64,000 bases of DNA from a virus. Shown here piece after piece: positions 11,614 through 41,180 of the stretch (position 1 is its first letter; each line of letters opens with the position of its first letter). A program made the position numbers and the translations under genes. The stretch lies in the IMG/VR virus record IMGVR_UViG_3300032287_001394; one strand, 5' to 3'. The notes below the pieces were generated by a model that did no database searches, was not told the DNA's origin, and worked only from the letters and a program-made list of their open reading frames with translations.

Positions 11614-11820
11614 ATGAAGATTAAAGTAGAAAATGAATCTTTAGTTAGGGATACTACTACTAATGCTATATTAGAAGTAGATACAACTAAGTTAAATAAG
11701 TATAGAGCTATCAGACAAAGTATTAAAGATAGAGAACATAAGATAGATTATTTAGCTGAAAGAATAAATAAATTAGAATTAATCATAGAACGGATGAACA
11801 ATGGCGACAATATTACTTAG
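11614..11820 (+). CDS. Small hypothetical coiled-coil protein
   Basis: 68-aa ORF tightly packed between structural genes; LVRDTTTNAIL start and heptad-like C-terminus. Confidence 0.6.
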   Translation: MKIKVENESLVRDTTTNAILEVDTTKLNKYRAIRQSIKDREHKIDYLAERINKLELIIERMNNGDNIT

Positions 11821-12979
11821 ACTAGGCGCAACAGGTGCAACGGGAGTTAAAAATTCTCCTCTAACTAATGCAGAAATAGATACTAACTTTAGTAATCTTA
11901 ATACTGACATAGGTACTAGATTATTATCTAGTGATTATACGGCATCTGATGTTTTAACAAAGATTAAGACTGTAGACGGTACAGGTTCAGGATTAGACGC
12001 AGATCTATTAGATGGTCTAAACGCAGTATCAGGTGCTACTGGTGCTAGCATAGTATCTCGCGATGCTTCTGGTAACTTTTCAGCTGGTACTATTACTGCA
12101 ACGTTTACTGGTAACGTAACAGGTAATACTAATGGCGTACATACTGGTGCAGTGACTGGTAATGTTACTGGTAATACTAATGGCGTACATACTGGTGCAG
12201 TAACAGGTAATGTTACAGGTAATTTAACAGGTGATGTAACTGGTAATACCACTGGAAATCATAATGGTGCAGTAGGTAATGCTACTCCAAGCAGCGGAGC
12301 ATTTACTACACTTAGCGCAGCAGGAATACTATCAGCAGGTGCCGCAGTTGTGTTAGGTGGAACATTAAGTGCAAATGGTTCTAATGGTAATTCTGGACAA
12401 TATTTAAAATCAAGAGGTTTAAGTTTAACTCCAATTTGGGATACCGTATCAATTGACTTAGTAACACAAGTTTCAAGTACACTACTAGCTGGAAATGGCG
12501 GCACGGGTTTAGCTTCAGTAGGTGCTAGCGGAAACGTATTAATATCTGATGGTACTTATTGGATAAGTGACCGTCTTACTGTAGTCGCTAATGATTTAAA
12601 TGGAGATGCAACTGGGTCATTTCCAGCAGATGAACAAACTGGAACAGCTCCTATATTTGCTGCTCGGGCATGGGCACGTTTTGATGGAACTAAAGACACT
12701 ACTAATGCTACATCTACATCAAATACAAATAGATTAATTAAAGCTAGTGGAAATGTTACATCTATATTAAGAAATTCTATTGGTAATTATACATTAACAT
12801 TTAGAACTGCTCTACCTAGTGCAAATTATGCAGCAATAGCATCTGGGTTCTTAAGCTCTGGTAATGCAGCTATAGTTACTACTGATAATTATACAACAAC
12901 TACATTAACATTAAATTGTGTAGATTCTAGTAATGCTGAAGCAGACTTTTTAAATGTAAACGTTGCGATATTTGGATAA
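11801..12979 (+). CDS. Tail fibre-like protein
   Basis: SPLTNAEIDTNF N-terminus, GSGLDADLLDG motif, TGNVTG repeats, C-terminal ARAWARFDG...GNYTLTF domain. Confidence 0.7.
   Translation: MATILLRLGATGATGVKNSPLTNAEIDTNFSNLNTDIGTRLLSSDYTASDVLTKIKTVDGTGSGLDADLLDGLNAVSGATGASIVSRDASGNFSAGTITATFTGNVTGNTNGVHTGAVTGNVTGNTNGVHTGAVTGNVTGNLTGDVTGNTTGNHNGAVGNATPSSGAFTTLSAAGILSAGAAVVLGGTLSANGSNGNSGQYLKSRGLSLTPIWDTVSIDLVTQVSSTLLAGNGGTGLASVGASGNVLISDGTYWISDRLTVVANDLNGDATGSFPADEQTGTAPIFAARAWARFDGTKDTTNATSTSNTNRLIKASGNVTSILRNSIGNYTLTFRTALPSANYAAIASGFLSSGNAAIVTTDNYTTTTLTLNCVDSSNAEADFLNVNVAIFG
12108..12225 (+). repeat. 48-bp tandem repeat encoding TGNVTGNTNGVHTGAV
   Basis: GGTAATACTAATGGCGTACATACTGGTGCAGT occurs twice at 48-nt spacing. 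Confidence 0.8.
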
Positions 12980-12988
12980 GGATATTAA

Positions 12989-14089
12989 ATGGCAAGCTTA
13001 ACACTACGAAGCATTAAAGGATCTCCTCTAACACTGGCAGAGGTAGATGCAAATTTTACTGCATTAAACACTGAACTTGGAGAAAAAGTAGCTACTACAT
13101 CATACACCGCAGCAGATGTGCTTTCAAAACTATTAACTGTTGATGGAGCAAGTTCCGGTTTAGATGCGGACTTTGTTGACGGTTTAAGTCCATCTGCAAC
13201 AAATGCTGGTAATAGTTTAGTATCTAGGAATTCTTCAGGTAACTTTGCAGCAGGTACTATTACTGCAACACTAACTGGAAATGTAACAGGTAACTTAACT
13301 GGCAACGTAACAGGAAACTTAACTGGTAATGTAACAGGCAATACTAGTGGTTCAGCTGGTACTCTTGCTAATACAAGAACTATTAGTATAACTGGTGATG
13401 GTTCATGGACTACATCATTTGATGGATCAGCAAATGTAACCGGTGCTTTTACACTAACAACTAGCGGTGTAGCTGCTGGAACATATACTAAGATTACTGT
13501 CGATGCTAAAGGCAGAGCTACTGTTGGTGCATCATTGAGCGGAACAGATGTTACTACAGCTTTAGGTTATACTCCATGGCATTCAGGTAATGATGGATCT
13601 GGATCTGGATTAGATGCAGACTTATTAGACGGATATAACTCAGCTACTGCTGCTACGGTATCTACTGTAGCTGTGCGAGATGGTTTTGGCGACTTAACGG
13701 CAAATGTATTTAAAGGCACAGCAACTTCTGCAAGATATGCAGACTTAGCAGAAAAATATACTACAGATAAAGAATACTCGGTTGGTACTGTCATTGTCAT
13801 CTCTGATAAAGAAGATTCTGAATGCACAGCATCAGACTATATAGGACAACATGCTATAGGAGTTATATCAGAGAATCCAGCATTCTTAATGAATTCAGAA
13901 TCATCTGGTCAAGCAGTTGCTATCAAAGGAAGAGTGCCTGTTAGAGTAATTGGTCCAATCAGAAAAGGTGAATCTGTTTGTGCAGCTACTAATGGTCAAG
14001 CTATATTAGGTCAAGTTAATGCAATTGCTGTCGCATTAAAGACAGATTTAACACATGAAGAAAAATTAGTGGAGTGCTTTATATTATAA
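12989..14089 (+). CDS. Tail fibre-like protein with C-terminal peptidase-G2/IMC-like chaperone domain
   Basis: N-terminus paralogous to the 11801 ORF; GSGLDADLLDG; C-terminal ADLAEKY...GVIS.NPAFLMN...GRVPVRVIGPIRKG. Confidence 0.7.
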   Translation: MASLTLRSIKGSPLTLAEVDANFTALNTELGEKVATTSYTAADVLSKLLTVDGASSGLDADFVDGLSPSATNAGNSLVSRNSSGNFAAGTITATLTGNVTGNLTGNVTGNLTGNVTGNTSGSAGTLANTRTISITGDGSWTTSFDGSANVTGAFTLTTSGVAAGTYTKITVDAKGRATVGASLSGTDVTTALGYTPWHSGNDGSGSGLDADLLDGYNSATAATVSTVAVRDGFGDLTANVFKGTATSARYADLAEKYTTDKEYSVGTVIVISDKEDSECTASDYIGQHAIGVISENPAFLMNSESSGQAVAIKGRVPVRVIGPIRKGESVCAATNGQAILGQVNAIAVALKTDLTHEEKLVECFIL

Positions 14090-14589
14090 CACTTAATGAA
14101 GTTGTTGAATTTATTCACAACCCTTTGTCATATAAGCAACATTTAGTTTCAATAATAAATGACAGGGGGATACAAATCCCCCTTAATCATTCTAGCGAGC
14201 TGTATGAGGATAAGCCTAAGACTATTAAGGTCGAAGGGATGGAACGATATTCTAAAGTAATTTGGGATAAGTGCTGTGAATTTGCAGATGAATATAATCA
14301 TCATGGTCCTGTGACATGTCATGCATTTATAGCTCAAGCAAACTCCCCATCTTTTGATATGCATACTGATCCAGATGATGTCATCATAGTATGCTGTGAA
14401 GGTAAGAAAACCATGATGGTGAATGGCACATATATAGTATTAGAGGCTGGAGAACATGTTTATATCCCAGTTAATACTCCACACCAAGCATTAAATGAAT
14501 ATGCAGCACTAACGTTAAGCTTTGGTTTAGAAAACTATTTGAAGGATAAATCTCGTAATGAATTGGATGTTTTACCTAAAGACGACTGA
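14074..14589 (+). CDS. JmjC/cupin-fold 2-oxoglutarate/Fe(II) oxygenase (RoxA/YcfD-like catalytic domain)
   Basis: SFDMHTDPDDVIIVCCEGKK...LEAGEHVYIPVNTPHQA gives an HxD...H facial triad and the GxK motif; GTG start overlaps the fibre gene stop. Confidence 0.75.
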   Translation: MLYIITLNEVVEFIHNPLSYKQHLVSIINDRGIQIPLNHSSELYEDKPKTIKVEGMERYSKVIWDKCCEFADEYNHHGPVTCHAFIAQANSPSFDMHTDPDDVIIVCCEGKKTMMVNGTYIVLEAGEHVYIPVNTPHQALNEYAALTLSFGLENYLKDKSRNELDVLPKDD

Positions 14590-15598
14590 GACATGTAACT
14601 TAAATTGTCGCCATTGTTTTACTAATGGTATAAATGGTGCAAAGGTATATTGGGATCATAATAAAGTAATAGATTGGATTCATAGATTTTCCAATTATGC
14701 ATCTAAAAGTGATACATTACATTGTGAATTTCATGGAGGTGAACCATTCTTAGTGCCAGTATCCCAGATGTATGAGGTATGGGATAAGTGCAAGGCTTTG
14801 TTTACTAATTCCAGTTGGGGTGCAACAACCAATTTGGTATTTAAATTATATCAAGAACATATAGATTTAATAAAAGGTCCATTTAACGGTAGAATTGGAA
14901 CTTCATGGGATCCAAAGATAAGGTTTGATAATAAGAAACAAATAGATCTTTGGCGCAATAATGTAAAGACACTGTTGTCTGAAGGCATAACAGTAAGATT
15001 GTTTATAAGTGTCACAAAAGATACTATAGCTATAGACCCAATAGTTTTATTAAGATGGATAAGAAGATTGGGAGTTCAAGAGGTATCATTTGAACGATTG
15101 ACTAATAACGGAAGCGCTAAGAAGTTTCCAGAGATATTTCCATTTAATAAAGATCAAGATGCATGGTTTTTAAAAATGCACCAACAATCTGAAAAATATG
15201 GTGCCAGACATTGGTTTGAGAATGATTTTTTAGAAACAATTTATTCTAAGTTTGAAACTGGTTTTACTAAAGGTGGTACATTTTGTAGGGATTGTGAAGA
15301 AAAGATTTTCACATTAAATGCTGATGGAACCATTTCAGGTTGTCCAAATTCAGCACCAGAATTTCAATTTGGCCACATAGATGACGATATAAATAACCTT
15401 ATAAATAGTCCTATACGCCTAGAAAATATGGCGTGTGAGAGGTCTAGAAACCCATTATGTTATTCTTGTGATGTGTTTCAATATTGCGGTGGTGATTGTC
15501 ACCAGTTATCTTGGCAAGATGAGATATGCGGGGCTCCCAAAAGTTTAATGAGAGAGCTTTCTAAGAAAAAGAAGATATTTTCTATAATACATGTATAG
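14558..15598 (+). CDS. Radical SAM/SPASM enzyme 1
   Basis: CNLNCRHC (CxxxCxxC) and FHGGEPF; C-terminal CRDC...GCP...CYSCDVFQYCGGDC...C SPASM-type Cys array. Confidence 0.9.
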   Translation: MNWMFYLKTTETCNLNCRHCFTNGINGAKVYWDHNKVIDWIHRFSNYASKSDTLHCEFHGGEPFLVPVSQMYEVWDKCKALFTNSSWGATTNLVFKLYQEHIDLIKGPFNGRIGTSWDPKIRFDNKKQIDLWRNNVKTLLSEGITVRLFISVTKDTIAIDPIVLLRWIRRLGVQEVSFERLTNNGSAKKFPEIFPFNKDQDAWFLKMHQQSEKYGARHWFENDFLETIYSKFETGFTKGGTFCRDCEEKIFTLNADGTISGCPNSAPEFQFGHIDDDINNLINSPIRLENMACERSRNPLCYSCDVFQYCGGDCHQLSWQDEICGAPKSLMRELSKKKKIFSIIHV

Positions 15599-15616
15599 AT
15601 AGATAAAGAGGATTTT

Positions 15617-16144
15617 ATGGCAACAGTTGGCACCGTAGTAACAAAACAGAATATCATTGATGATTTTGTTAGTGCTGTAATGGTCCCAGAACAAACTAGG
15701 ACCAGATGGCACGCAACTAATAGACCTACGTATATTGCAGACGTATTAGTTGACGCGAGTGTTGGTATGGCCAATCCTATCGCATCAAACTTTACAGAAG
15801 CAATTACAGCAAGTAACATTGTGTCAGTGCTTAGAGACTATGCTTATGGTACTACGAGAGTAAGATTAGTTAGAGCTGGAATTTACTACGAATTTCCGGC
15901 TGGTCCTGGTACAATAGATGAACAAGTTGCTTACGCTCACTTAAATGATACCTATTTAAGAACAAATCCATTAAGTGTTTCAGGTCCAGTTGTTAATGAT
16001 ATCATTACTGCAGATCCATTAAATACCTTTTATACTTCATTAAGATTAGCATCTAACACAGATACTTACGGAGATATCATAGATCTTCGAATTTGCCACT
16101 CATCATGTCATTCAGCATGTCATAGTTCTAGAGGAAGAAGATAA
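15617..16144 (+). CDS. 175-aa protein with C-terminal (CHSx)3-RGRR motif; candidate substrate/precursor of the radical-SAM cluster
   Basis: Ends ICHSSCHSACHSSRGRR*; strong GAGGA RBS; embedded among radical SAM genes. The substrate role is inference. Confidence 0.7.
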   Translation: MATVGTVVTKQNIIDDFVSAVMVPEQTRTRWHATNRPTYIADVLVDASVGMANPIASNFTEAITASNIVSVLRDYAYGTTRVRLVRAGIYYEFPAGPGTIDEQVAYAHLNDTYLRTNPLSVSGPVVNDIITADPLNTFYTSLRLASNTDTYGDIIDLRICHSSCHSACHSSRGRR

Positions 16145-17190
16145 TGTTTCATTTATTTAACTCAGTTTATTTACATTTTGATTTTAATTTTGAACCGGCT
16201 GGAAAAGACTTTATATTAGCATCAGATATTTATGGCAACAAGCCAATGATAACGGTGCAAAATAATGAAGTTTATCAATCTCAACCATCATTTGAAGATT
16301 TAATTAAGTATCCATTTAACGGTGACGAAGAAAATTTCTGGACTAATTTAATTGCTCGTAATAAGAAAGTTGTGGTATATGTTAATCCATCTCAACTTTA
16401 TAAGTTGCAAACTAAGTATTTAAAGAGCATCTTTAAACATGCATCTATTCAAGATTTACATAGAATTCATGTCTCATTTGTTGAAAGTACTAGATTAAGA
16501 TCTTACTTTGAAGCTTCCACTGGGCCAGATATACGTAAACATAAAACACTTACTACTATTAATCCATTATCATTAGAACAATTTGAAGAATTATATAATT
16601 CAACAGAAGTTTCTAAAGCCTTACAGAGCTTAGATAAAACCACATTATCATTCGAATATCTTTTAGCTGATTATGTTTATAACAAAAATAGCCAATATAA
16701 ATCAGCCCTATTAGCTAAAAGTGAGGTAATGATTTGGGATAATTGGTTCAATGAACTTGAATATTTACGTTATGAAACTATATTTGGTTCATTAGATCTT
16801 AATAAATTAGACCCTAATATTGAATTAGGTATTGGTACAATTGAAGAAGCACTTGCACAAAGTGAATTACTAAAGTGGATTGTTGATCCAGACTTTGCAT
16901 ATAACAGAGAATATATTAAAACTAATTATGATTATAAAACATTTAGTTCACTGTGGGATAAAATTTATAGTTTATATGGCGTGTCTGAAGATATGTCAGA
17001 GACAAATGAATTAATTAATACCGACATGTATGAAGAATTATTAAATCGTGATATTAATCGCGGATTTGGTTGCACTTATACAGGTGAAATGTTTAAAGAA
17101 AAAGCCAATCACGTGTTTGCATCATATTGCTATAATATTGCACGCACAAATGATACATCATCGCTAGCTCCATATAGATTGACTTCTTAA
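16144..17190 (+). CDS. Hypothetical protein of the radical-SAM cluster
   Basis: 348-aa ORF coupled (TAATG) to the CHSx gene; no motif recognised. Confidence 0.7.
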   Translation: MFHLFNSVYLHFDFNFEPAGKDFILASDIYGNKPMITVQNNEVYQSQPSFEDLIKYPFNGDEENFWTNLIARNKKVVVYVNPSQLYKLQTKYLKSIFKHASIQDLHRIHVSFVESTRLRSYFEASTGPDIRKHKTLTTINPLSLEQFEELYNSTEVSKALQSLDKTTLSFEYLLADYVYNKNSQYKSALLAKSEVMIWDNWFNELEYLRYETIFGSLDLNKLDPNIELGIGTIEEALAQSELLKWIVDPDFAYNREYIKTNYDYKTFSSLWDKIYSLYGVSEDMSETNELINTDMYEELLNRDINRGFGCTYTGEMFKEKANHVFASYCYNIARTNDTSSLAPYRLTS

Positions 17191-17218: not shown

Positions 17219-18343
17219 ATGAATATATTTAGTAATGAATTTAATGTTATTTATTTAAGAGTCGTACAAGGGTGCAATTTAAACTGCACTCATTGTTTTA
17301 CTCTTGGTAATAAAGATCCTTATATGGTTACTGACCTTAACTATATTGAGGATTTTTTGTCATCTATAAAAGATAACGTCGACCCTCAAAAAGCTACATT
17401 TTATATACATGGTGGAGAAACTTTTCTTGCGCCATATTCACATTTAGCTGACGTTAATAAAATAATCAGATCTAAGTTTGGTACTAAGAGGATAGACATA
17501 ATTCCTCAAACAAATCTATTGTATACTATAGATGATGAGTTTATTAATTTTGTAAAGACCGAGTACCGATCAACCATTGGTGTTTCTTGGGATGCTGACA
17601 TTAGGTTTGGATCTATTGCAATTAATAAGAAGACTGATCAAGAAAACCTATTCTTTAGCAATTTAAAACAACTTCTTGCCAATGATATAAAAGTTCATAT
17701 AGCAATTACTGCTCAAAAGCATTTGTTAAACTACGATCCTCTTGAGATTGTAAAAATGTTTGATGGAGTTGATTCAATTGACTTTGAATTATTAACTACA
17801 TTTGATGAGAAAACTAGAAACTTAAAACCTAATAATAAAAAATGGGCTATATGGTTAGAGAAGTTAGTAGATTATTATCAGTATAATAAAACTACTTGGT
17901 GCTTACCACAAATAGATCTTTTTACAAAGGCGTTAATTACAGGTAATTTATTCGACTGTAAGTGTAATTGTTGTGATAAACGCACTTTTACTTTAAATCC
18001 AAATGGTACTGTTGGGTTATGTCCAGATAAAACTTATGTTGAACCATTTTCAACTACTACTGAAATGAAACAAGATTGGGCTACATTCCAAAATAAATCA
18101 CTCGATGTAATAATGAAAAAGTTAGTTGAAATGGATCAACATACTATGTGTTTTGAATGTGAACATTATGACATATGTGGCGGTAATTGTGATGCAAGTT
18201 TGTTTGATGATTCCGATGAATGTCCATTATCTAAAAGTGTTATAAGTAAGATTAGAAATAATAAAGAAGTTTTTATAAAACTGTATGAAGATAAAGCTAA
18301 AAACAATTTAACTGAATTAAGGAATGATTATGACATACATTGA
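17219..18343 (+). CDS. Radical SAM/SPASM enzyme 2
   Basis: CNLNCTHC and IHGGETF; CKCNCC...GLCP...CFECEHYDICGGNC...ECP. Clear paralogue of enzyme 1 (shared IGxSWD..IRF and FTLNxxGT motifs). Confidence 0.9.
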   Translation: MNIFSNEFNVIYLRVVQGCNLNCTHCFTLGNKDPYMVTDLNYIEDFLSSIKDNVDPQKATFYIHGGETFLAPYSHLADVNKIIRSKFGTKRIDIIPQTNLLYTIDDEFINFVKTEYRSTIGVSWDADIRFGSIAINKKTDQENLFFSNLKQLLANDIKVHIAITAQKHLLNYDPLEIVKMFDGVDSIDFELLTTFDEKTRNLKPNNKKWAIWLEKLVDYYQYNKTTWCLPQIDLFTKALITGNLFDCKCNCCDKRTFTLNPNGTVGLCPDKTYVEPFSTTTEMKQDWATFQNKSLDVIMKKLVEMDQHTMCFECEHYDICGGNCDASLFDDSDECPLSKSVISKIRNNKEVFIKLYEDKAKNNLTELRNDYDIH

Positions 18344-19046
18344 TACAATTGCCCCTATTCCAATTGACTGTATTAAAGAATATTTTAAAGATAAAAATAT
18401 AATGTTTTTAATTGACTATGAAAATAGTAAACTTGAAAACAAAGTCTTTTTGACGTATTTGTCAAACCTTGACGTTCCTTGTGACATTAAATTAGATTCT
18501 TTAAGCACAGAAAAGAAGTTGGCTTTATTAGAAGCATATTTAAATATTAAAAATATTACCAATGTTCCTGCTTTGAACATCATGATGGCGCAAATCATTT
18601 TACATATGATTGGATCAGATCCATCAATGTTGTTTAAAACACTATCTCTTACACCTGAAGAGTGCGATACATTCATAGAAAAAAATAAATTAGAGATTGA
18701 AAGATGGTTGATCTTCTTAGATTCAACTATGGTTTTCTTAATCTATTCTTATAAAGATTTAAATGAGAAAATTAAAGTAGAAGAAACTTTCCCTATCATT
18801 GACGATGAAAACTTTGTTGGTTTAAACGTTATTAATCTATTAAAGATTCCTGCATTCTTAGAACTTTACTTTGCCGCAGATAAACCAGTAGCACTATACT
18901 ACTTTAAACGTCACTTTGAAGTATACATGTTTAAGGGCAAATCATTCTTTGAGTATTATAATAACGAGTGTAATGCATTCATTCCATTACTTAAACAATT
19001 AATTTCAAAAGAATTACCATTAACTCCTCCAAATTTCGAGGTTTAA
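18324..19046 (+). CDS. Hypothetical protein of the radical-SAM cluster
   Basis: 240-aa ORF overlapping the rSAM2 end; probable start at 18330 after AAGGA; no motif recognised. Confidence 0.7.
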   Translation: MIMTYIDTIAPIPIDCIKEYFKDKNIMFLIDYENSKLENKVFLTYLSNLDVPCDIKLDSLSTEKKLALLEAYLNIKNITNVPALNIMMAQIILHMIGSDPSMLFKTLSLTPEECDTFIEKNKLEIERWLIFLDSTMVFLIYSYKDLNEKIKVEETFPIIDDENFVGLNVINLLKIPAFLELYFAADKPVALYYFKRHFEVYMFKGKSFFEYYNNECNAFIPLLKQLISKELPLTPPNFEV

Positions 19047-19047
19047 T

Positions 19048-20151
19048 ATGGATGCATATTTAACTTCAGGTAATCTGAACGAATCTAATTCTTATTATTT
19101 CAACCTTAATTTTGAATTTTTAAATGGATGTCAATTTAGTTGTAAAGGTTGTCATGTAAACAAGAATGGTTCTGCGCCTATTAATGATGAAAGTTATCTT
19201 CAGCTTATGAAGATTATGAATTCATTTACACCTGAAAATTCATATAAACCATTCATTGCCTTTATTGCTCCAACAGATTTTCTATCTGCAACTAATACGT
19301 ATTCAGTTTTAACAGATAAACGTATTATTGAAATCCTTAATAAGTTTAAAAGAATATCTCTCCAAACTACGTATCTTAATATGGATAAGGCGAGTCTTAT
19401 TGCTGATGTATTAAAAGAACACTATAGTAATATGGAATTAGAAATCAATGTTATCATAGAACCAGAAAAGATTGAGAATGAAAAGTATTTAAGCATTCTT
19501 AAAAAACATCAAGATAAAATGATTGATCTTTTAGATTGGCCTATACCAGTAAGATCATTTGGTATTATGAATGTATTTGATTATGATTCTACTAAACTTG
19601 CAGAGATATTAAAAGATTACGACCATTTACATAAGAAAGTTCAACATCTATTTCAAACTACTATTGATTTTAATTTTTCTTTAGGTAGAAAAGACGAAAA
19701 CTTAACACACGAAGAATTTAAAAGTGCGACCAATAGAATTAAAACTATGTTCAATAGTTCTGTTGTTTCTGGTGAGAAAAGCGGCTACCTTAGATTTTCA
19801 TTTGGTAAACTAAATGATTCTCTAATTGAACGACAATATAACTGGAAGAACGGCGAGTTTTATTATTCACCTCTCCTTTATGAACGATATGTTTCTTTTA
19901 TTGATGGATTAAAAATGAACATAGAAGACTATAGTGCAAAAGAATTTGAAAAGTTTGAAGAAGACGTTCAATTACAGCAATACCTGAATGTATCGAATAA
20001 AACTGAATGTGAAGATTGCATTATGTTAGGATCTTGTGTTGATCGTGGTATCTTACATCTAATGGATGTTCATGGAGTTAAAGATTGTTTAGTTGCTAAA
20101 GATGCAATGCTAACAGTCAATAATCTAAAAATTTCAGGCCATCCTGCATGA
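19048..20151 (+). CDS. Radical SAM-like protein 3 (atypical, lacks GGE motif)
   Basis: CQFSCKGC (CxxxCxxC); FIAPTDF at the usual GGE position; C-terminal CEDCIMLGSC...C. Confidence 0.75.
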   Translation: MDAYLTSGNLNESNSYYFNLNFEFLNGCQFSCKGCHVNKNGSAPINDESYLQLMKIMNSFTPENSYKPFIAFIAPTDFLSATNTYSVLTDKRIIEILNKFKRISLQTTYLNMDKASLIADVLKEHYSNMELEINVIIEPEKIENEKYLSILKKHQDKMIDLLDWPIPVRSFGIMNVFDYDSTKLAEILKDYDHLHKKVQHLFQTTIDFNFSLGRKDENLTHEEFKSATNRIKTMFNSSVVSGEKSGYLRFSFGKLNDSLIERQYNWKNGEFYYSPLLYERYVSFIDGLKMNIEDYSAKEFEKFEEDVQLQQYLNVSNKTECEDCIMLGSCVDRGILHLMDVHGVKDCLVAKDAMLTVNNLKISGHPA

Positions 20152-21209
20152 GTGAATTCTTAAGACATGTTTTAAAAGATAAAATGCCAGACTCAACTGA
20201 GATTGAGCTGCATCTATTTGAGTTCTGTAACTTAAGCTGTGCTTTCTGTGGACAAGATCACGACTCTACAGAAGGTATGAACACTATTGAGGAAAAAGCT
20301 TTACAAGTTACAGACTTTATGAAAAAGTCTAATATGAATAGCCATATCGTTAATATTATGGGTGGGGAAATATTCAATGATTTAGTACCAGACGATACGT
20401 TTGAAAGCTATATAAAATTTTATAACATTATCAATTCTTGGTGTGACGACAATAATCATACAGTAAGATTTAATTGGGTTACTAACTTAATATTCTTAAA
20501 AATACAACGTATAAAAGACTTCATTAATACATTAAGAGCTATTAAACCTAATTCATATATTTCAACTTCATATGACTTTGCTGGTCGCGGATTGAATTTA
20601 AATCGAACGTTACAATTTGAACACAACATTAAAAGCTTTAAAGATATTATTACAGTAGTTGGATTTGTATTAACTAAACAAGCAATTAAAAGGATACTAA
20701 CTAAGACTGACAAATTCTTTAAAGATTATCTTTATGAGAACTATACCCTATACTTTGATTATTATGTTCCAGAAGCAAATGCAGAAAAAATGATGCCAAC
20801 TGAGCACGAAATGTTGGATTGCATGTTATTCATTGCTAAGAATTACCCTGAGATTTATCCAATAAAAGATCTTATTGTTAATGAACGAAATAAGATGACT
20901 TGTTATTCCATGAATAAGACGACAATCCTTCCAAGCGGAAGAGAAGTCACATGTCGTTACATGGATTATGATCCTATCACTTTCATAAATAAGATTGACT
21001 ATAAATCAAACAGTAATATTATCCAATCGCATTTAGATAGAAACCAATGTTTATCATGTAAATGGTTTGATCGTTGTCAGTTTAGATGTTTTGTTCAAGC
21101 CGATTGGGCAAAACTAGAAAGAACACACGACTGTCTATTTAGAGAGTTCTTCAATAGAATGGAAAGTGAGAATCTATTACAATATGGATCTAATAATAAA
21201 ACCGACTGA
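20148..21209 (+). CDS. Radical SAM/SPASM enzyme 4
   Basis: CNLSCAFC and IMGGEIF; C...C...CLSCKWFDRCQFRC...C. Confidence 0.88.
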   Translation: MSEFLRHVLKDKMPDSTEIELHLFEFCNLSCAFCGQDHDSTEGMNTIEEKALQVTDFMKKSNMNSHIVNIMGGEIFNDLVPDDTFESYIKFYNIINSWCDDNNHTVRFNWVTNLIFLKIQRIKDFINTLRAIKPNSYISTSYDFAGRGLNLNRTLQFEHNIKSFKDIITVVGFVLTKQAIKRILTKTDKFFKDYLYENYTLYFDYYVPEANAEKMMPTEHEMLDCMLFIAKNYPEIYPIKDLIVNERNKMTCYSMNKTTILPSGREVTCRYMDYDPITFINKIDYKSNSNIIQSHLDRNQCLSCKWFDRCQFRCFVQADWAKLERTHDCLFREFFNRMESENLLQYGSNNKTD

Positions 21210-22257
21210 GAAGTGCAACTTTAAATGCACATTCTGTTCTAGTACATATATCACTGAAGATAAAACTGCCGAGTTAGATCATCAGTATATCTTTGACTTC
21301 TTAAAGAGGTTCCCGGAAACTAAGACAATTATAGTCAATGGTGGCGATCCATTGATGATGGAACCTGAATACTATTGGAAGATTATAGAACATTTAGATG
21401 AAATAGGTTCTGATGCTACCATATCATTTACTACTAACTTATGGCCGTTCTATAAGAATCCTAATAGATGGAAAGAGCTCTTTAATCATTCAAGATTAGG
21501 TATAACTACATCATTCCAATATGGAGGAGGTAGGCTTAAAGGCGACTTGACAGAGTTTAGTGAAGAAGACTTTTGGAAGTGTTCAGATGCTATGTTAGAG
21601 CATTGTGGATATAGACCAGACTTTATTGCAGTTATTACTGAAGAGAATGAGCATGACGCTATAAAAAACGTCGAATTAGCTAAGAAGATGGGTGTAGAGT
21701 GTAAACTTAATTATGCATTCTCATCAGGACCGCCAGTCAAGTTTAAGAATATAATCATGGGTCAAGAAGGTAAGCCATACTTGTTAGCGGACATATATGA
21801 GATATATGTTGAGATATGGAAAAGAGGTTTGACTGAATGGGAATATAATACTAAACAAATGGTTAAACGTCTAAAGGGTGAAGGTACTACATGTCCACAG
21901 AATAGGGATTGTGATAGCGGCATTAGGACTTTACAACCATCTGGAGACTACTACTCTTGTGGTGCATTTGGAGATGATAGACAGTATCCAATAGACTTTA
22001 ACAAAGAAATGACTGGTGAAAAGATACATCCTATTAAGTTTCAATCTGAACTGCAGAGTTTAAAACAATCATGCTATATTTGTCCTATGTTTGAAATATG
22101 TAATGGATGTAAGAAGACTATAACAGACCTTAAGAATTATAACTTAGTTGAAGAGCATTGTTATAAGATGAAGCAACTTGCTCCTGATATAATCAAAGCC
22201 AATGGATTAAATTTAGAACCCACTCCGTATGAGAGGGAATATGATTATATCAATTAA
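21184..22257 (+). CDS. Radical SAM/SPASM enzyme 5
   Basis: IIKPTEKCNFKCTFC and NGGDPL; CPQNRDC...YSCG...CYICPMFEICNGC. ATG at 21184 preferred over the GTG at 21166. Confidence 0.9.
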   Translation: MDLIIKPTEKCNFKCTFCSSTYITEDKTAELDHQYIFDFLKRFPETKTIIVNGGDPLMMEPEYYWKIIEHLDEIGSDATISFTTNLWPFYKNPNRWKELFNHSRLGITTSFQYGGGRLKGDLTEFSEEDFWKCSDAMLEHCGYRPDFIAVITEENEHDAIKNVELAKKMGVECKLNYAFSSGPPVKFKNIIMGQEGKPYLLADIYEIYVEIWKRGLTEWEYNTKQMVKRLKGEGTTCPQNRDCDSGIRTLQPSGDYYSCGAFGDDRQYPIDFNKEMTGEKIHPIKFQSELQSLKQSCYICPMFEICNGCKKTITDLKNYNLVEEHCYKMKQLAPDIIKANGLNLEPTPYEREYDYIN

Positions 22258-23179
22258 TCCATGGTATTATTGTAACTTTAAGTGTGACTTCTGTTACTTA
22301 ACTAAAGAACAATTAGACGACAAGACTCTATTAGATTTAAGAGTATTAGAAAAAAGACTTGATGAAGTCATGTCTATTGATGAGATTGGTGGGATAGATT
22401 TATATGGCGGTGAAATAGGATTACTACCTGAAGATTATGTAGAAGAATTATGTGCTATAGTTAAATCGCGAGGCATTGATGATATAAACATAATCACTAA
22501 TCTAAGTATGGTCAATAGAGTTATAACCAACCCAGATTTATATGTATCTGTTAGCTATGACTTTGAATGTAGAGAACAACATGATCGTGTATGGGACAAT
22601 ATGTTTGCTCTTAATAATCCATTTTCTATATTAATCTTAGCCAGTAAAGATCTAATAAATAAAGATGTAGGTGAGATGATATCTCAGTTAAACCTATTAA
22701 GTAACTTAAGTTCTGTAGAGATTAAACCGTATAGCATAAATCAAGCAAATTGCCACTCGGTCAGCCATAAAGACTTTGAGTTATTTGTACAAAAATGGTT
22801 GGATAATGATATACAAATGAGGTTTGAGTTTGTCAATGAAAACAATATTCAAGCGACTTTGGATGGGTCTCGTAATGCATTCAGTAATGACCATGTGTAT
22901 ATTACTCCAACTGGACAATTTGCAGTCCTTGAGTTTGACCTAAATGATAAAGAATACTTTAAGACTTTGGACTCAATACAAGATTATAAAGATTGGGCAT
23001 TAAATGAACCTAATAAGAACGTAAGTGATATATGTAAGTCATGTGACTATTATGGTAGATGTTTAACAGAGCATTATCGATATGTTAAAGATTTGGATAA
23101 TGGATGTAATGGATATAAAGGACTAATTGATTGGTATAAACATGGAAGATTGGAAGATAAGACAAGAGCTCTATCATAG
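22241..23179 (+). CDS. Radical SAM enzyme 6 with shortened SPASM-like tail
   Basis: CNFKCDFC and LYGGEIG; CKSCDYYGRC...GC. ATG at 22241 follows a GAGGG RBS (ORF track starts at 22229). Confidence 0.88.
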   Translation: MIISINPWYYCNFKCDFCYLTKEQLDDKTLLDLRVLEKRLDEVMSIDEIGGIDLYGGEIGLLPEDYVEELCAIVKSRGIDDINIITNLSMVNRVITNPDLYVSVSYDFECREQHDRVWDNMFALNNPFSILILASKDLINKDVGEMISQLNLLSNLSSVEIKPYSINQANCHSVSHKDFELFVQKWLDNDIQMRFEFVNENNIQATLDGSRNAFSNDHVYITPTGQFAVLEFDLNDKEYFKTLDSIQDYKDWALNEPNKNVSDICKSCDYYGRCLTEHYRYVKDLDNGCNGYKGLIDWYKHGRLEDKTRALS

Positions 23180-23546
23180 ACTAAACACTGTCCATGATGA
23201 TGACTTAAATGATAAGAATATAGAGATCACTGACAATATAGTGGCGGATGCTGTTAGGTATTTTACCGAAAAAGACATAGGATGGATCTATCCATCTAAA
23301 AGTTATATGGTTGCTATATGTTATGCTAAATGGCTTTCTGAAGAGTTTGGCGGCAATCCTATAGACTATTTAAATGATATAGATTTACTATTTGGCAATG
23401 ACCCATATTTCATAATATATGATGAAGATGCTGTTACATATAACCAGATATTAGACCGTATAGGCGAATGGAAGTTTGATCAAACTAAAGGAATGGTTCC
23501 TGATGTTAAGAAGTATTTTATAGAGGAATTTATGATAGATGTTTAA
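23142..23546 (+). CDS. Hypothetical acidic protein ending the radical-SAM cluster
   Basis: ORF overlapping the rSAM6 end; ATG at 23142 (track start TTG 23127); no motif recognised. Confidence 0.65.
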   Translation: MEDWKIRQELYHRLNTVHDDDLNDKNIEITDNIVADAVRYFTEKDIGWIYPSKSYMVAICYAKWLSEEFGGNPIDYLNDIDLLFGNDPYFIIYDEDAVTYNQILDRIGEWKFDQTKGMVPDVKKYFIEEFMIDV

Positions 23547-26718: not shown

Positions 26719-28113
26719 ATGGCTAATAAAGTCGTTCTCAAACGAAGTGCCGTACCAGGCAGAAATCCGGGTGCAAGCGATCTTGCGCTTGGAGAGTTGG
26801 CACTCAACACATACGATGGTAACCTATTCTTTAAAAAAGACAGTGGAACTGCTTCCATTGTTGCAGTTACTACATTAGATGGCACACAAACCCTTACAAA
26901 TAAGACTTTAACAAGTCCAGCAATAAGTAATCTTACAGTTACTGGCACAATAACTGCTGGTGGTGGTGTTGGAACAAATGGACAAGTTCTTGCTTCTACT
27001 GGAACAGGTGTTCAGTGGATATCTGTTGGCTTAGGATCTGGTGCTACAGGTGCCACAGGTGCTGCAGGTGTAAATGGTGCTACAGGTGCTAACGGTGATG
27101 CAGGTATAAATGGTGCCACTGGTGCTGCAGGTATAAATGGTGCCACTGGTGCTGCAGGTATAAATGGTGCCACTGGTCCTCAGGGTGCATCTGGTGTAGG
27201 TGCTACTGGTCCTCAGGGTCCTGCTGGTGCATCTGGTGTAGGAGGTAGTGGAGATGGTGCTACCGGTGCTACCGGTCCTACCGGAGCAAGCGGCGTTGCG
27301 GGTGCATCAGGTTATATAGGTTCTGACGGCGCTACTGGTCCTAGTGGAGCTGCTGGTGCGACAGGTATTCAAGGTCCTGCTGGTGCATCTGGTGTAGGAG
27401 GTAGTGGAGACGGTGCTACTGGTCCTCAAGGTCCTGCTGGTGCATCAGGTTCACAGGGTGCATCTGGTGTAAGTGGAGGATTAAGCCCATGGGCGATCAT
27501 ATCATCTAATACAACAGCTGCAGCTGGAAACCAATATTTAGTTGACACCTCTGATGGCGGGTTTATCATAACACTGCCAGCTTCTCCATCTGTTGGAGAT
27601 CAAATCACTATTGCTGACAATGCAGATTTTAGTGTTAATAACTTAACGATAAGTGGTAATGGTCAAACGATCGGTGGTGGTTCTACAACATTAATAGTTA
27701 ATGAAGCTGAAGTAATACTTAATTTAGTATACAATTCAGTTACATGGAAATTATGGAAAAATAACTTCATAGTAGCAGCTTGGGATTATGAAGGTGATTT
27801 ACAAACATTAACCGGATCAGAAGATCTAGATACTGGAACTGGAACGGTAGATTTAAATCTTGATATTGGATCAGAAGATCTAGATACTGGAACTGGAACG
27901 GTAGATCTAAATACTGGAACTGGTACAGAAGATTTGAATCAACTCACAGGATTAGAGGGAGATTTATTTTCATTGACTGGAGCAGAAGATTTGAATCTTG
28001 GCACAGGAATATTGGATCTAAATGAATTCCCAGGGTTAGTAGGAGATTTATTATCATTGGCTGGAACAGAAGATTTGAATTCTGGAAGCGGCTCAAGTGA
28101 CTTATCAAATTAA
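26719..28113 (+). CDS. Collagen-like fibre protein with acidic nonapeptide-repeat C-terminus
   Basis: VLKRSAVPG...GELALNTYDG N-terminus; (Gly-X-Y)n rich in GAT/GAS; YLVDTS.G...ITLPASP..GD domain; EDLxxGTGT repeats. Confidence 0.75.
   Translation: MANKVVLKRSAVPGRNPGASDLALGELALNTYDGNLFFKKDSGTASIVAVTTLDGTQTLTNKTLTSPAISNLTVTGTITAGGGVGTNGQVLASTGTGVQWISVGLGSGATGATGAAGVNGATGANGDAGINGATGAAGINGATGAAGINGATGPQGASGVGATGPQGPAGASGVGGSGDGATGATGPTGASGVAGASGYIGSDGATGPSGAAGATGIQGPAGASGVGGSGDGATGPQGPAGASGSQGASGVSGGLSPWAIISSNTTAAAGNQYLVDTSDGGFIITLPASPSVGDQITIADNADFSVNNLTISGNGQTIGGGSTTLIVNEAEVILNLVYNSVTWKLWKNNFIVAAWDYEGDLQTLTGSEDLDTGTGTVDLNLDIGSEDLDTGTGTVDLNTGTGTEDLNQLTGLEGDLFSLTGAEDLNLGTGILDLNEFPGLVGDLLSLAGTEDLNSGSGSSDLSN
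27100..27177 (+). repeat. 27-bp tandem repeat x3 (GINGATGAA)
   Basis: GCAGGTATAAATGGTGCCACTGGT repeated three times at 27-nt spacing. Confidence 0.85.
27814..27906 (+). repeat. 39-bp direct repeat within the nonapeptide array
   Basis: GGATCAGAAGATCTAGATACTGGAACTGGAACGGTAGAT at 27814 and 27868. Confidence 0.85.
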
Positions 28114-40532: not shown

Positions 40533-41180
40533 ATGGCAAAAACACAGATATTAACTGCTCCCAATTTTACCCCTAGTTTTTTTGGTCATACTGGGCCAGT
40601 CGGTCCTAAAGTTGAGCATCATCACCATGATGACTATGAATTTGAGAAGGATTATTGGGGAGATTGTTGTAACACATTCGATGAAGATCAAAAGCATTAC
40701 GTCTATGCTAAACTCATGGGTCTAGAAAGAGATCATTATTCATTCAATGTTCATGGTGCAAGGATCCTTGATATTGGTGGAGGTCCAAGTTCAATGCTTT
40801 TGCAAACAAAAAATCTTAAGGCTGGTAAAGTAGTAGATCCTATTGCTTATCCTAAATGGACAGCTGATAGATATAAGATAAAGAATATTGAGGTTCAAGT
40901 AGGTCCTGGTGAAGAGATTGATGAAAAAGATTGGGATGAAGTATGGATCTATAATTGTTTACAACATGCAATTGATCCAGAAAAGATCATCAACCTTGCT
41001 AAGAAGTCTGCAAAGGTATTACGATTCTTTGAATGGATTGATATACCAGCGCATGATGGCCATCCACATGAATTAACAGAAGCCAACCTTGATAAGTGGA
41101 TTGGTCATAAAGGTTTTGTCACACAGCTAGCCGAACAGGGATGTTACGGTAAAGCATATTATGGAGCATTTATACTATGA
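40533..41180 (+). CDS. Class I SAM-dependent methyltransferase
   Basis: ILDIGGGP motif I; DEVWIYNCLQH..DP. Confidence 0.75.
   Translation: MAKTQILTAPNFTPSFFGHTGPVGPKVEHHHHDDYEFEKDYWGDCCNTFDEDQKHYVYAKLMGLERDHYSFNVHGARILDIGGGPSSMLLQTKNLKAGKVVDPIAYPKWTADRYKIKNIEVQVGPGEEIDEKDWDEVWIYNCLQHAIDPEKIINLAKKSAKVLRFFEWIDIPAHDGHPHELTEANLDKWIGHKGFVTQLAEQGCYGKAYYGAFIL

What the first reader, a model, noticed from the sequence alone, without database searches (positions are those of the whole stretch)
15617..16144. 175-aa protein ending ICHSSCHSACHSSRGRR: a hybrid His-Xaa-Ser / Cys-x3-Cys core on a virion-like body
Seen: the only three Cys of the protein form a 4-residue-period triple repeat at the extreme C-terminus (16094-16141). 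The codons differ between units (TGC CAC TCA TCA/TGT CAT TCA GCA/TGT CAT AGT TCT), so selection is at protein level rather than slippage. The body has two ITA(S/D) segments and a Thr/Val/Ala-rich composition like the structural genes. Known: His-Xaa-Ser repeats are rSAM substrates (Hxs systems, three-residue cyclophanes), Cys-x3 spacing is typical of rSAM thioether RiPPs, and CX3CH is a variant haem-c motif. Inference: a modified core giving three His cyclophanes, three thioethers, or a 3Cys/3His metal site, attached to a long leader or structural domain.
Basis: partly seen in the sequence, partly recalled or inferred. Interest (0 to 1): 0.85.

Follow-up and report, generated by a model that had tools for sequence, protein, structure and literature searches.

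The report
Phage protein with radical-SAM-linked Cys-His tail
A 175-residue protein of a T4-like phage ends in an almost invariant 16-residue tail, (Cys-His-x-Ser)x3-Arg-Gly-Arg-Arg, that is always encoded beside radical SAM enzymes in the tail-fibre region, so it is probably an enzyme-modified virion protein of a kind not yet described.

Summary
ORF 15617-16144 (+) encodes 175 aa ending ICHSSCHSACHSSRGRR, and these are its only three Cys. The motif is not chance. Among 313 distinct relatives, 302 have exactly three CHxx units. C, H and the final R-x-RR are invariant in the 278 tails of the commonest form, while the bodies share only 25-37% identity.

A second family, with a different N-terminal body, shares only the last ~56 residues and occurs as tandem pairs. 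It gave 402 hits.

In all 77 viral contigs with enough upstream DNA, a SPASM radical SAM gene ("rSAM1") lies upstream of the tail gene. The same holds in all 15 cultured-phage records that carry rSAM1 (RSL2 group, Atu_ph07, Phosso, DT01). The cassette always sits among tail-fibre genes.

Published proteomics found the Atu_ph07 homologue (gp170, 31.9 kDa) in virions. It peaked in the top gel slice, far above its mass.

The body folds confidently (pLDDT 92) but matches no solved structure.

Best reading: a virion accessory protein whose C-terminal tail is matured by the cassette's radical SAM enzymes. The chemistry (thioether, His cyclophane or metal site) is undetermined. The closest precedent is HxsA of the HXS defence system, but this protein is not a member of it. 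I found no description of it in the literature. The scan's only earlier notes are first-reader notes on this same genome.

The parts
15606..15611 (+). AAGAGG ribosome-binding site, 5 nt upstream of the ATG
   Evidence: Read directly from the sequence.
15617..16144 (+). CDS of the 175-aa (CHxS)3-RGRR protein (P0001)
   Evidence: Translation. Relatives: 92 by word search and 155 among cluster representatives. It matches phrog_35144, of unknown function, over residues 126-175 only.
15617..15973 (+). Variable N-terminal part of the folded body (residues 1-119)
   Evidence: AF2 pLDDT is about 89-98 over this part. Identity to relatives is 25-37%. This part is replaced by an unrelated body in the second family. 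No solved fold matches: Foldseek best E 0.08, VIA best Z 3.6.
15974..16093 (+). Conserved C-terminal module before the tail (residues ~120-159; helix 132-146 plus a strand)
   Evidence: This is the only part shared between the two body families (hhalign probability 98.9% over the last 56 columns). It is also the part matched by phrog_35144.
16094..16141 (+). C-terminal tail CHSS-CHSA-CHSS-RGRR (residues 160-175), the presumed modified core
   Evidence: Logo from 278 tails: [VI]-C-H-[SAT]-S-C-H-x-[SN]-C-H-[GS]-S-R-G-R-R. Low pLDDT (about 50-60) in the model.
16142..16144 (+). TAA stop, overlapping by one base the ATG of the next gene (translational coupling)
14558..15598 (+). rSAM1, a radical SAM/SPASM enzyme immediately upstream; the universal neighbour of the tail gene
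   Evidence: It has C13x3C17x2C20, GGEP, and the seven-Cys SPASM pattern C246...G257x4C262...C301x2C304x5C310x3C314...C324, all invariant in 40 homologues. TIGR04085 SPASM scores 32.6 bits against a cut-off of 27. It lies upstream of the tail gene in 77/77 viral loci that have upstream DNA.
14074..14589 (+). Cupin/JmjC-type oxygenase at the head of the cassette
   Evidence: Pfam JmjC_2 8.9e-09 and Cupin_2 5.2e-07. Present in 30/40 complete loci with R-x-RR tails and 0/8 with CHGS[LI] tails.
16144..17190 (+). Unknown 348-aa protein (phrog_36207), translationally coupled to the tail gene
   Evidence: Present only in the extended version of the cassette (9/40 loci).
17219..18343 (+). rSAM2, a radical SAM/SPASM paralogue
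   Evidence: Best NCBIfam hit is YhhB at 56.6 bits against a cut-off of 445.
18324..19046 (+). Unknown 240-aa protein (phrog_20767), the second universal neighbour of the tail gene
   Evidence: Present in 40/40 and 8/8 complete loci. The AF2 model has pLDDT 93 and no known fold.
19048..20151 (+). rSAM3-like protein (CQFSCKGC; phrog_31457)
   Evidence: Five paralogues of it follow the small tandem tail proteins in L105.
20148..21209 (+). rSAM4
   Evidence: Present in 40/40 loci with R-x-RR tails and 0/8 with CHGS[LI] tails.
21166..22257 (+). rSAM5, a radical SAM/SPASM enzyme and the third universal cassette gene
   Evidence: Pfam Radical_SAM 2.6e-10. Present in 39/40 and 8/8 complete loci.
22229..23179 (+). 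rSAM6
   Evidence: Pfam Radical_SAM 3.4e-07. Present in 39/40 loci with R-x-RR tails and 0/8 with CHGS[LI] tails.
23127..23546 (+). Unknown 139-aa protein at the end of the cassette
   Evidence: Present in 38/40 loci with R-x-RR tails and 0/8 with CHGS[LI] tails.
11801..14089 (+). Two tail-fibre genes directly upstream of the cassette; the second has an intramolecular-chaperone C-terminus
   Evidence: PHROG tail-fibre hits. Weak Pfam Peptidase_G2 IMC hit, 7.5e-4, below the cut-off. Fibre genes flank the cassette in related loci.

Best explanation
P0001 is an accessory protein of the phage's tail-fibre (host-recognition) module. It is probably incorporated into the virion. It has three parts: a fast-evolving folded body, a conserved ~40-residue helix-strand element, and an invariant C-terminal tail, (C-H-x-S)3-R-G-R-R.

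I propose that the tail is the substrate of the cassette's own enzymes. The SPASM radical SAM enzyme encoded immediately upstream (rSAM1) would act on the three CHxS units. It would work together with the universal partners, the 240-aa protein and rSAM5. The most likely products are one intramolecular cross-link per unit, either Cys thioethers or His-to-Ser carbon-carbon cyclophanes.

The enzymes that co-occur only with the R-x-RR ending (rSAM4, rSAM6, the 139-aa protein and the JmjC cupin) would act on or require the basic end.

The matured, rigid and possibly metal-binding or covalently linked tail would then serve in the assembled particle, for fibre attachment, fibre stability or host contact.

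Status of each step:
- Shown: the motif, its conservation, the gene linkage, the fold confidence, and the virion detection of one homologue.
- Inferred: that the tail is modified at all, which enzyme does it, the chemistry, and the role in the virion.
For: 1. Conservation. The tail is invariant across 313 members whose bodies are 25-37% identical. 302 of 313 have exactly three units. Synonymous codons vary freely.

2. The tail is portable. A second family (402 hits) has a different N-terminal body and shares only the last ~56 residues (hhalign 98.9%). 118 of its 120 best hits end (CHxx)3RGRR. It occurs as tandem pairs, as RiPP precursors often do.

3. Gene linkage.
- An rSAM1 homologue lies upstream on the same strand in 77/77 IMG/VR loci with at least 1 kb of upstream DNA, usually directly abutting.
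- The same radical SAM set surrounds 12 of 14 loci from prokaryote MAG contigs. The other two are a second-family locus with an rSAM3-like gene and a 5-kb fragment.
- All 15 cultured-phage records with an rSAM1 homologue carry the tail gene next to it.

4. rSAM1 has a complete radical SAM and seven-Cys SPASM signature, invariant in 40 homologues. It starts at the CxxxCxxC motif with no N-terminal recognition domain. From established knowledge, the same is true of the protein-modifying SPASM enzymes anSME and QhpD.

5. Tail ending tracks enzyme content.
- R-x-RR tails: rSAM4 40/40, rSAM6 39/40, the 139-aa protein 38/40, cupin 30/40.
- CHGS[LI] tails: 0/8 for all four.
- rSAM1, the 240-aa protein and rSAM5 are present in both groups.

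6. Relative rates. The enzymes are 46-82% identical between phages in which the tail protein's body is only 29-37% identical. This is the pattern expected for a conserved modification machine acting on a diversifying host-interaction protein.

7. Virion evidence. Atu_ph07 gp170 is this protein: its computed mass of 31.89 kDa equals the value in the paper's table. It was found in purified virions with 8 unique peptides and 35% coverage, and was most abundant in gel slice 1, where a 127-139 kDa protein would run. Other ~30-kDa proteins peaked in slices 7-8. The neighbouring radical SAM, cupin and 240-aa proteins were not detected (PMC6102473 Table S5).

8. Precedent. HxsA, a ~214-aa protein with His-x-Ser repeats, is matured by radical SAM enzymes on an SHRSS motif (PMC13128918).
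Against: - No modification has been observed on any member.
- None of the six enzymes reaches the curated cut-off of any characterised maturase family, so the chemistry cannot be read from homology.
- The linkage shows functional association, not an enzyme-substrate relation. The enzymes could act on the neighbouring fibres.
- The Atu_ph07 virion preparation was only PEG-purified and also contained obvious non-structural proteins (SSB, topoisomerase, RNR).
- The loading buffer as described lists no reductant. The high-mass migration could therefore be ordinary disulfides formed by the three tail Cys.
- The tail-type versus enzyme-set correlation rests on what is probably a single clade, so on one evolutionary event.
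- Virion presence is shown for a 15%-identical homologue, not for this phage.
Confidence: 0.6

Rival explanations
1. The tail is an unmodified metal-binding site (Zn, Fe or Cu held by 3 Cys and 3 His, possibly shared between subunits of an oligomer) in a structural fibre-accessory protein. The radical SAM enzymes beside it modify something else, such as the fibres themselves.
For: Cys and His are the invariant residues. The tail is modelled partly as a helix (residues 162-168), which would place i/i+4 residues on one face. From established knowledge, phage fibres use His-metal sites (T4 gp37 and gp12). Fibre genes always flank the cassette. SDS-stable high-mass migration of gp170 is compatible with a tight oligomer or with disulfides.
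Against: A metal site would not require strict adjacency to a SPASM enzyme in 77/77 loci. It does not explain the near-invariant Ser at the fourth position of each unit or the invariant R-x-RR ending. It does not explain why the tail ending co-varies with the enzyme set. It also does not explain why the same tail sits on two different bodies inside radical SAM cassettes.
Confidence: 0.2
2. The protein is a precursor. The modified tail is cut off and released as a small peptide or cofactor, as with PQQ or mycofactocin, and the body serves only as a scaffold or leader.
For: The core is at the extreme C-terminus, as in MftA and PqqA (established knowledge). There are many tailoring enzymes (six radical SAM enzymes, a cupin, and 2OG oxygenases in relatives). 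The second family occurs as tandem precursor-like copies.
Against: No peptidase or transporter was recognised in the cassettes that were inspected. The body is a confidently folded 160-residue domain under diversifying change rather than a leader. The whole protein was recovered from virions with 35% coverage. The position among fibre genes does not fit a diffusible product.
Confidence: 0.08
3. The tail ligates an iron-sulfur cluster. The protein would act as a cluster donor or electron-transfer partner for the six radical SAM enzymes, not as their substrate.
For: Cys and His are cluster ligands. Marine T4-like phages rich in radical SAM genes also carry Fe-S assembly genes (PMC5332604).
Against: Only three Cys are present, on a flexible tail at a regular 4-residue spacing unlike known cluster motifs. 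Ser and R-x-RR conservation is unexplained. The body evolves much faster than the enzymes it would serve. The protein was detected in virions whereas the enzymes were not.
Confidence: 0.07

Closest known systems
HxsA of the bacterial HXS anti-phage system (HxsA/B/C/D; Li et al. 2026, PMC13128918)
   Same: Both are full-length folded proteins (~200 aa) rather than short peptides. Both carry repeated His-x-Ser units and basic residues. In HXS the protein is matured by dedicated radical SAM enzymes on a Ser-His-x-Ser-Ser site, with a small partner protein.
   Different: HXS is a host defence system with a periplasmic, peptidoglycan-binding effector. This protein is phage-encoded, sits in the fibre module, and has no signal-peptide-like N-terminus by eye. 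The repeats here are interleaved with invariant Cys (period 4) and lie at the extreme C-terminus, followed by R-G-R-R. No NCBIfam Hxs model is met: HxsB 24.9 bits against 370, HxsC 30.8 against 267.9, and no HxsA or HxsD hit even at E<=5.
Thioether-forming SPASM maturases and their Cys-repeat substrates (PapB/ranthipeptides, CteB/SCIFF, QhpD acting on QhpC, the CXXX-repeat target family TIGR04115)
   Same: All are SPASM radical SAM enzymes paired with a substrate that has regularly spaced Cys. PapB is rSAM1's best NCBIfam hit and CteB is among its best solved-structure hits. QhpD and anSME act on proteins and lack an N-terminal recognition domain, as rSAM1 does (established knowledge).
   Different: Scores are far below the family cut-offs: PapB 46.1 against 340, the CXXX-repeat maturase 19.7 against 350. 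The acceptor Asp/Glu of the PapB and QhpD motifs is absent. Invariant His follows every Cys.
Three-residue cyclophane (triceptide) systems, including His-containing motifs (for example HtkB, His-C2 to Lys-C-beta; PMC11499958)
   Same: Each unit contains aromatic-x-x3 (His-x-Ser), the spacing that cyclophane synthases cross-link. rSAM2's best NCBIfam hit is the cyclophane synthase YhhB.
   Different: YhhB scores 56.6 bits against a cut-off of 445. XyeB, FxsB, GrrM and AmcB all score under 30 bits. Known triceptide precursors are short peptides without invariant Cys.
Radical SAM gene cassettes in the host-recognition cluster of pelagimyophages, and the 'accessory' radical SAM, cupin and 2OG genes listed for RSL2-like jumbo phages
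   Same: These are the same genes in the same place. Papers note radical SAM cassettes in the host-recognition cluster (PMC7029224) and list a cupin, radical SAM proteins and 2OG oxygenases in FLC6 and S13.
   Different: None of these papers mentions the tail protein, its motif, or any substrate or function. The gene is annotated 'hypothetical protein' in all records seen.

Membership tests
HXS system (HxsA substrate) | Match to the HxsA model (TIGR03979) or the HxsD model | tested here: not met
   P0001 and the three unknown cassette proteins have no NCBIfam hit at E<=5.
HXS system (HxsA substrate) | HxsB and HxsC equivalog radical SAM enzymes adjacent | tested here: not met
   rSAM1 against HxsB scores 24.9 bits (cut-off 370). 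rSAM5 against HxsC scores 30.8 bits (cut-off 267.9).
HXS system (HxsA substrate) | Tandem His-Xaa-Ser repeats | tested here: inconclusive
   Three H-x-S units are present, with Ser at 94%, 69% (plus 21% Asn) and 91%. Each is separated by an invariant Cys, giving a period of 4 rather than 3.
Radical SAM / SPASM subfamily (for rSAM1, the proposed maturase) | CxxxCxxC cluster motif plus the seven-Cys SPASM motif | tested here: met
   C13/C17/C20 and C246, C262, C301, C304, C310, C314, C324 are invariant in 40 homologues. TIGR04085 scores 32.6 bits, at or above its cut-off of 27.
Ranthipeptide (PapB/PapA type) | PapB equivalog score; Cys-x3-Asp/Glu acceptor motif in the substrate | tested here: not met
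   46.1 bits against a cut-off of 340. The tail contains no Asp or Glu.
CXXX-repeat peptide system (TIGR04115 maturase family) | Maturase equivalog score | tested here: not met
   19.7 bits against a cut-off of 350. The substrate does have a C-x-x-x period.
Triceptide / three-residue cyclophane systems | Maturase in the XyeB, FxsB, GrrM, YhhB or AmcB families | tested here: not met
   Best is YhhB at 56.6 bits against 445 (rSAM2). The others score under 30 bits.
Triceptide / three-residue cyclophane systems | Aromatic-x-x motif cross-linked to the C-beta of the third residue | not testable with these tools
   The His-x-Ser spacing is present. The cross-link itself needs MS or NMR.
c-type cytochrome variant (CX3CH) | Export signal and haem attachment at CXnCH | tested here: inconclusive
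   Two overlapping C-x3-C-H strings exist. By eye the N-terminus MATVGTVVTKQNIIDDF has no hydrophobic signal region. No predictor was run and haem attachment cannot be tested here.
Phage virion structural protein | Detected in purified particles | tested here: inconclusive
   Met for the homologue Atu_ph07 gp170: 8 peptides, 35% coverage (PMC6102473 Table S5; identity confirmed by mass). Not tested for this phage, and that preparation contained contaminants.

The most novel reading that the evidence does not exclude
Large myophages of many lineages (marine T4-like, RSL2-like, Atu_ph07-like) use a dedicated multi-enzyme radical SAM pathway to cross-link a universal C-terminal tag, (CHxS)3-RGRR, on interchangeable host-recognition accessory proteins. 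This would be RiPP-type chemistry applied to a virion component. The modified tag might covalently anchor the protein to the fibre or form a metal-binding tip. If so, it would be the first radical-SAM-matured structural protein of a virus, and a phage-side counterpart of the host's radical-SAM-matured HxS-repeat defence effector.
Probability: 0.4. Interest if true: 0.9.

Novelty: new variant of a known kind. Interest (0 to 1): 0.8.

Why it matters
Radical SAM gene cassettes in the host-recognition regions of abundant marine phages and of jumbo phages have been noted for years without any substrate or purpose. This protein family gives them a concrete candidate substrate with a short core that suits mass spectrometry.

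Several cultured phages carry the cassette: RSL2, RSF1, FLC6/8, S13, RsoM3USA, DT01, Atu_ph07 and Phosso. The question can therefore be tested directly.

If confirmed, it would show that viruses use RiPP-like cross-linking chemistry on their own particle proteins. It would define a new Cys/His repeat substrate class for SPASM enzymes. It might also explain how these phages stabilise or diversify their receptor-binding apparatus.

Tried and rejected
- **Complex prediction, rSAM1 (A2) with the tail protein (A1):** no answer, score 0.01 against a mark of 0.32. It counts neither for nor against binding.
- **Fold searches of the body model.** None gave a usable match.
  - Foldseek against PDB: best E 0.08.
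  - VIA-align against 48,161 chains: best Z 3.6, a tie of unrelated proteins that included a phage Milano baseplate chain and TssK.
  - ESM Atlas: TM at most 0.31.
  - BFVD: returned only family members, plus three 504-660-aa proteins of Myoviridae sp. ctijX18 that I could not fetch.
- **Fold searches of the 240-aa partner:** nothing above Z 4.6, and that match covers only residues 1-58.
- **ESM Atlas feature search** of the 240-aa and 348-aa proteins: no usable hit.
- **Searches of INPHARED phages:**
  - Megablast of the cassette found nothing.
  - tblastn of P0001 and of P0070 found nothing. The cultured homologues were reached only through rSAM1.
- **Word search for longer, fused forms:** none found, which is weak evidence. 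One Gly-rich fusion (P0153) and one protein with an extended CH-rich tail (P0212) came from the exhaustive search.
- **Short 'peptide' forms of 59-106 aa:** these look like fragments or internal-Met calls, not true short precursors.
- **PADLOC:** only generic viperin-like radical SAM similarity.
- **Whole-genome search:** not possible, because no genome is held for this window.
- **Literature searches** for a described function found none.
- **Haem-c reading:** rejected as unlikely, because there is no export signal by eye and the context is a cytoplasmic phage assembly pathway.
Full report
**What is there.** ORF 15617-16144 (+) encodes a 175-aa protein (P0001) ending ...DLRICHSSCHSACHSSRGRR. 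These are its only three Cys. An AAGAGG ribosome-binding site precedes the ATG, and the TAA stop overlaps the ATG of the next gene. The DNA pattern for two consecutive Cys-His-x-x units occurs nowhere else in the window, against 0.23 expected.

**The window.** It comes from a T4-like myophage.
- All genes are on one strand. It carries a baseplate wedge, tail fibres, terminase, sheath, portal and major head protein.
- The sheath is about 54% identical to those of Methylophilales phage Melnitz and Pelagibacter phage Mosig.
- No host genome is held for it.

**The gene neighbourhood.** The ORF sits in an 11-gene block between fibre genes. In order:
- a JmjC/cupin oxygenase
- rSAM1 (SPASM)
- P0001
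- an unknown 348-aa protein
- rSAM2 (SPASM)
- an unknown 240-aa protein
- an rSAM3-like protein
- rSAM4
- rSAM5 (SPASM)
- rSAM6
- an unknown 139-aa protein

**The motif is conserved far beyond chance.**
- Two protein searches returned 232 relatives of 59-842 aa.
- 185 of the 233 proteins in hand match CH..CH..CH.xRGRR at the C-terminus.
- Nearly all the others carry 2-6 CHxx units followed by R-x-RR, or end CHGS[LI].
- In a 150-sequence alignment (21-83% identity to the query), C160, H161, C164, H165 and H169 are invariant. C168, S171, R172, R174 and R175 are at least 90% conserved. Mean column identity is 15%.
- Pooling proteins and locus ORFs gives 313 distinct members, of which 302 have exactly three units.
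- The tail logo is [VI]-C-H-[SAT]-S-C-H-x-[SN]-C-H-[GS]-S-R-G-R-R. Each unit therefore contains a His-x-Ser triplet.
- Ser at the fourth position is encoded from both the AGY and TCN codon boxes. This shows selection on the protein.

**The tail is a portable module.**
- On contigs L095 and L097, two tandem genes of 134-140 aa follow directly after a fibre protein of about 2,000 aa (L095) or at least 2,400 aa (L097, cut by the contig end). These genes have a different N-terminal body (QLRTFDK...). They end CHSSCHGSCHSSRGRR and similar.
- Profile comparison aligns only the last ~56 columns of the two families: a helix, a strand and the tail (probability 98.9%).
- This second family is large, with 402 hits. 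Of its 120 best hits, 118 end (CHxx)3RGRR.
- It again lies between a giant fibre and a string of rSAM3-like paralogues.
- One relative (P0153) fuses a Gly-rich, fibre-like N-terminus to the body. Another (P0212) extends the Cys-His-rich tail.

**Linkage to radical SAM enzymes is essentially absolute.**
- Among 80 IMG/VR loci, all 77 with enough upstream DNA have an rSAM1 homologue upstream on the same strand, usually abutting. The 240-aa protein follows downstream wherever enough downstream DNA is present.
- In one genome per species of 185,579 prokaryotes, only 14 loci were found, all on MAG or bin contigs. Twelve carry the same radical SAM set. The other two are a second-family locus with an rSAM3-like gene and a 5-kb fragment.
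- In the reverse direction, all 15 cultured-phage records with an rSAM1 homologue carry the tail gene next to it. They are the RSL2/RSF1/FLC/RsoM3USA/SURPRISE13 group, Atu_ph07, Phosso and pPa_SNUABM_DT01.
Both were tested and failed to refute.

**Structure of the cassette.** rSAM1 has C13x3C17x2C20, GGEP and the canonical seven-Cys SPASM pattern, invariant across 40 homologues. It passes the SPASM domain cut-off. It begins at the cluster motif, with no N-terminal recognition domain.

The minimal cassette is fibre, rSAM1, tail protein, 240-aa protein and rSAM5. The tail ending tracks the rest of the enzyme set:

| Gene | R-x-RR tails (40 complete loci) | CHGS[LI] tails (8 complete loci) |
|---|---|---|
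| rSAM1 | 40/40 | 8/8 |
| 240-aa protein | 40/40 | 8/8 |
| rSAM5 | 39/40 | 8/8 |
| rSAM4 | 40/40 | 0/8 |
| rSAM6 | 39/40 | 0/8 |
| 139-aa protein | 38/40 | 0/8 |
| cupin | 30/40 | 0/8 |

This suggests a division of labour between the repeat units and the basic end. The CHGS[LI] group is probably one clade, so this may reflect a single evolutionary event. Enzymes are 46-82% identical between phages whose tail-protein bodies are only 29-37% identical.

**The protein itself.**
- AlphaFold2 with the family alignment gives a confident alpha/beta domain for residues 1-159 (mean pLDDT 92, pTM 0.85). The tail is low-confidence.
- No solved structure matches. Only family members match among viral models, including the Atu_ph07 protein.
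- The 240-aa partner also folds confidently (pLDDT 93) into no recognised fold.

**Experimental evidence from the literature.** Attai et al. 2018 (PMC6102473) analysed Atu_ph07 particles by gel-slice ESI-MS/MS.
- Their gp170 has a listed mass of 31.89 kDa. That equals the computed mass of the Atu_ph07 tail protein P0235. gp176 and gp177 also match, so the numbering is secure.
- gp170 was found with 8 unique peptides and 35% coverage in slices 1-9, and was most abundant in slice 1.
- Slice 1 otherwise holds proteins of 76-139 kDa. Two exceptions (gp321, 36 kDa; gp616, 32 kDa) rest on only one or two peptides. Other ~30-kDa proteins peak in slices 7-8.
- The adjacent radical SAM, cupin and 240-aa proteins are not in the virion list.
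- This makes the family virion-associated and hints at an SDS- and heat-stable high-mass form.
- Caveats: the stock was PEG-purified and contained some non-structural proteins. The loading buffer as described lists no reductant, so disulfides could explain the migration.

**What is known elsewhere.**
- Genome papers list the cupin, radical SAM and 2OG genes of RSL2-like phages as accessory genes.
- A pelagimyophage study notes radical SAM cassettes in the host-recognition cluster.
- None of these mentions this protein or any substrate.
- The closest precedent is the HXS defence system (PMC13128918). There, HxsA is a ~214-aa protein with five His-x-Ser repeats. It is matured by the radical SAM enzymes HxsB and HxsC with HxsD, and acquires a +8 Da change on an SHRSS motif.
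- The phage proteins do not meet any Hxs model, nor the PapB, DynA, YhhB, CXXX-repeat or other maturase cut-offs.
- So this system works like a radical-SAM-matured protein but belongs to no described family.

**Interpretation.** The most likely reading (about 0.6) is as follows. The protein is a fibre-module accessory protein. Its invariant tail is modified by rSAM1 and its partners, one event per CHxS unit. Further enzymes are tied to the R-x-RR end. The mature form is used in the particle.

The chemistry is open, and so is whether links are within one molecule or between molecules.

Rivals:
- an unmodified Cys3His3 metal site (0.2)
- a released tail-derived product (0.08)
- an Fe-S or electron carrier (0.07)
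- haem attachment, which is unlikely

The complex prediction gave no answer and is not used as evidence.

**Verdict.** It is a new variant of a known kind. It is directly testable in several cultured phages, which is why it scores high. The scan's only earlier notes on this feature are first-reader notes on this same genome.

Noticed in passing
L095:6062-6879; L097:7644-8479; L105:10001-10833: A second, larger family (402 hits) of 125-140-aa proteins carries the same (CHxx)3RGRR tail on a different N-terminal body (QLRTFDK...). It is always seen as a tandem pair placed directly after a giant tail fibre of about 2,000-2,900 aa, and is followed by up to five rSAM3-like paralogues.
   Followed up: partly
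IMG/VR loci L041, L062, L066, L075-L079, L084: A clade whose tails end CHGS[LI] instead of R-x-RR lacks rSAM4, rSAM6, the 139-aa protein and the cupin. In L062, the only one scanned, a B12-binding radical SAM (629 aa) and an Asp/Asn beta-hydroxylase-like protein are present instead, and the cassette is flanked by fibres with chaperone domains.
   Followed up: partly
P0212 (285 aa) and P0153 (453 aa), metagenomic relatives: P0212 continues past the three units into a long Cys/His-rich extension (…CHSYCHTNVDCHVDCH…). P0153 fuses a Gly-rich, fibre-like N-terminal region to the family body.
   Followed up: no
window 18324-19046 and 16144-17190: The universal 240-aa partner folds with pLDDT 93 but matches no solved fold or named family. 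The 348-aa protein, translationally coupled to the tail gene, is likewise unassigned.
   Followed up: partly
L089-L094, L099 (MAG contigs labelled Bdellovibrio, Bacteriovoracia and relatives): Seven of the 14 hits in prokaryote genome bins are on contigs binned to Bdellovibrionota, all with the full radical SAM set. I did not examine whether these are phages of predatory bacteria or binning artefacts.
   Followed up: no
window 26719-28113 and 41177-42322: A collagen-repeat protein lies downstream of the cassette (Pfam Collagen 6.8e-12). A glycosyltransferase with a very strong PHROG match (1.6e-194) lies within the structural region.
   Followed up: no
BFVD hits A0A8S5USJ7, A0A8S5USJ8, A0A8S5USV2 (Myoviridae sp. 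ctijX18): Three paralogous 504-660-aa proteins of one uncultured myophage match the body model (E 5e-5 to 2e-4). They may be fused forms, but I could not fetch them to check their tails.
   Followed up: no
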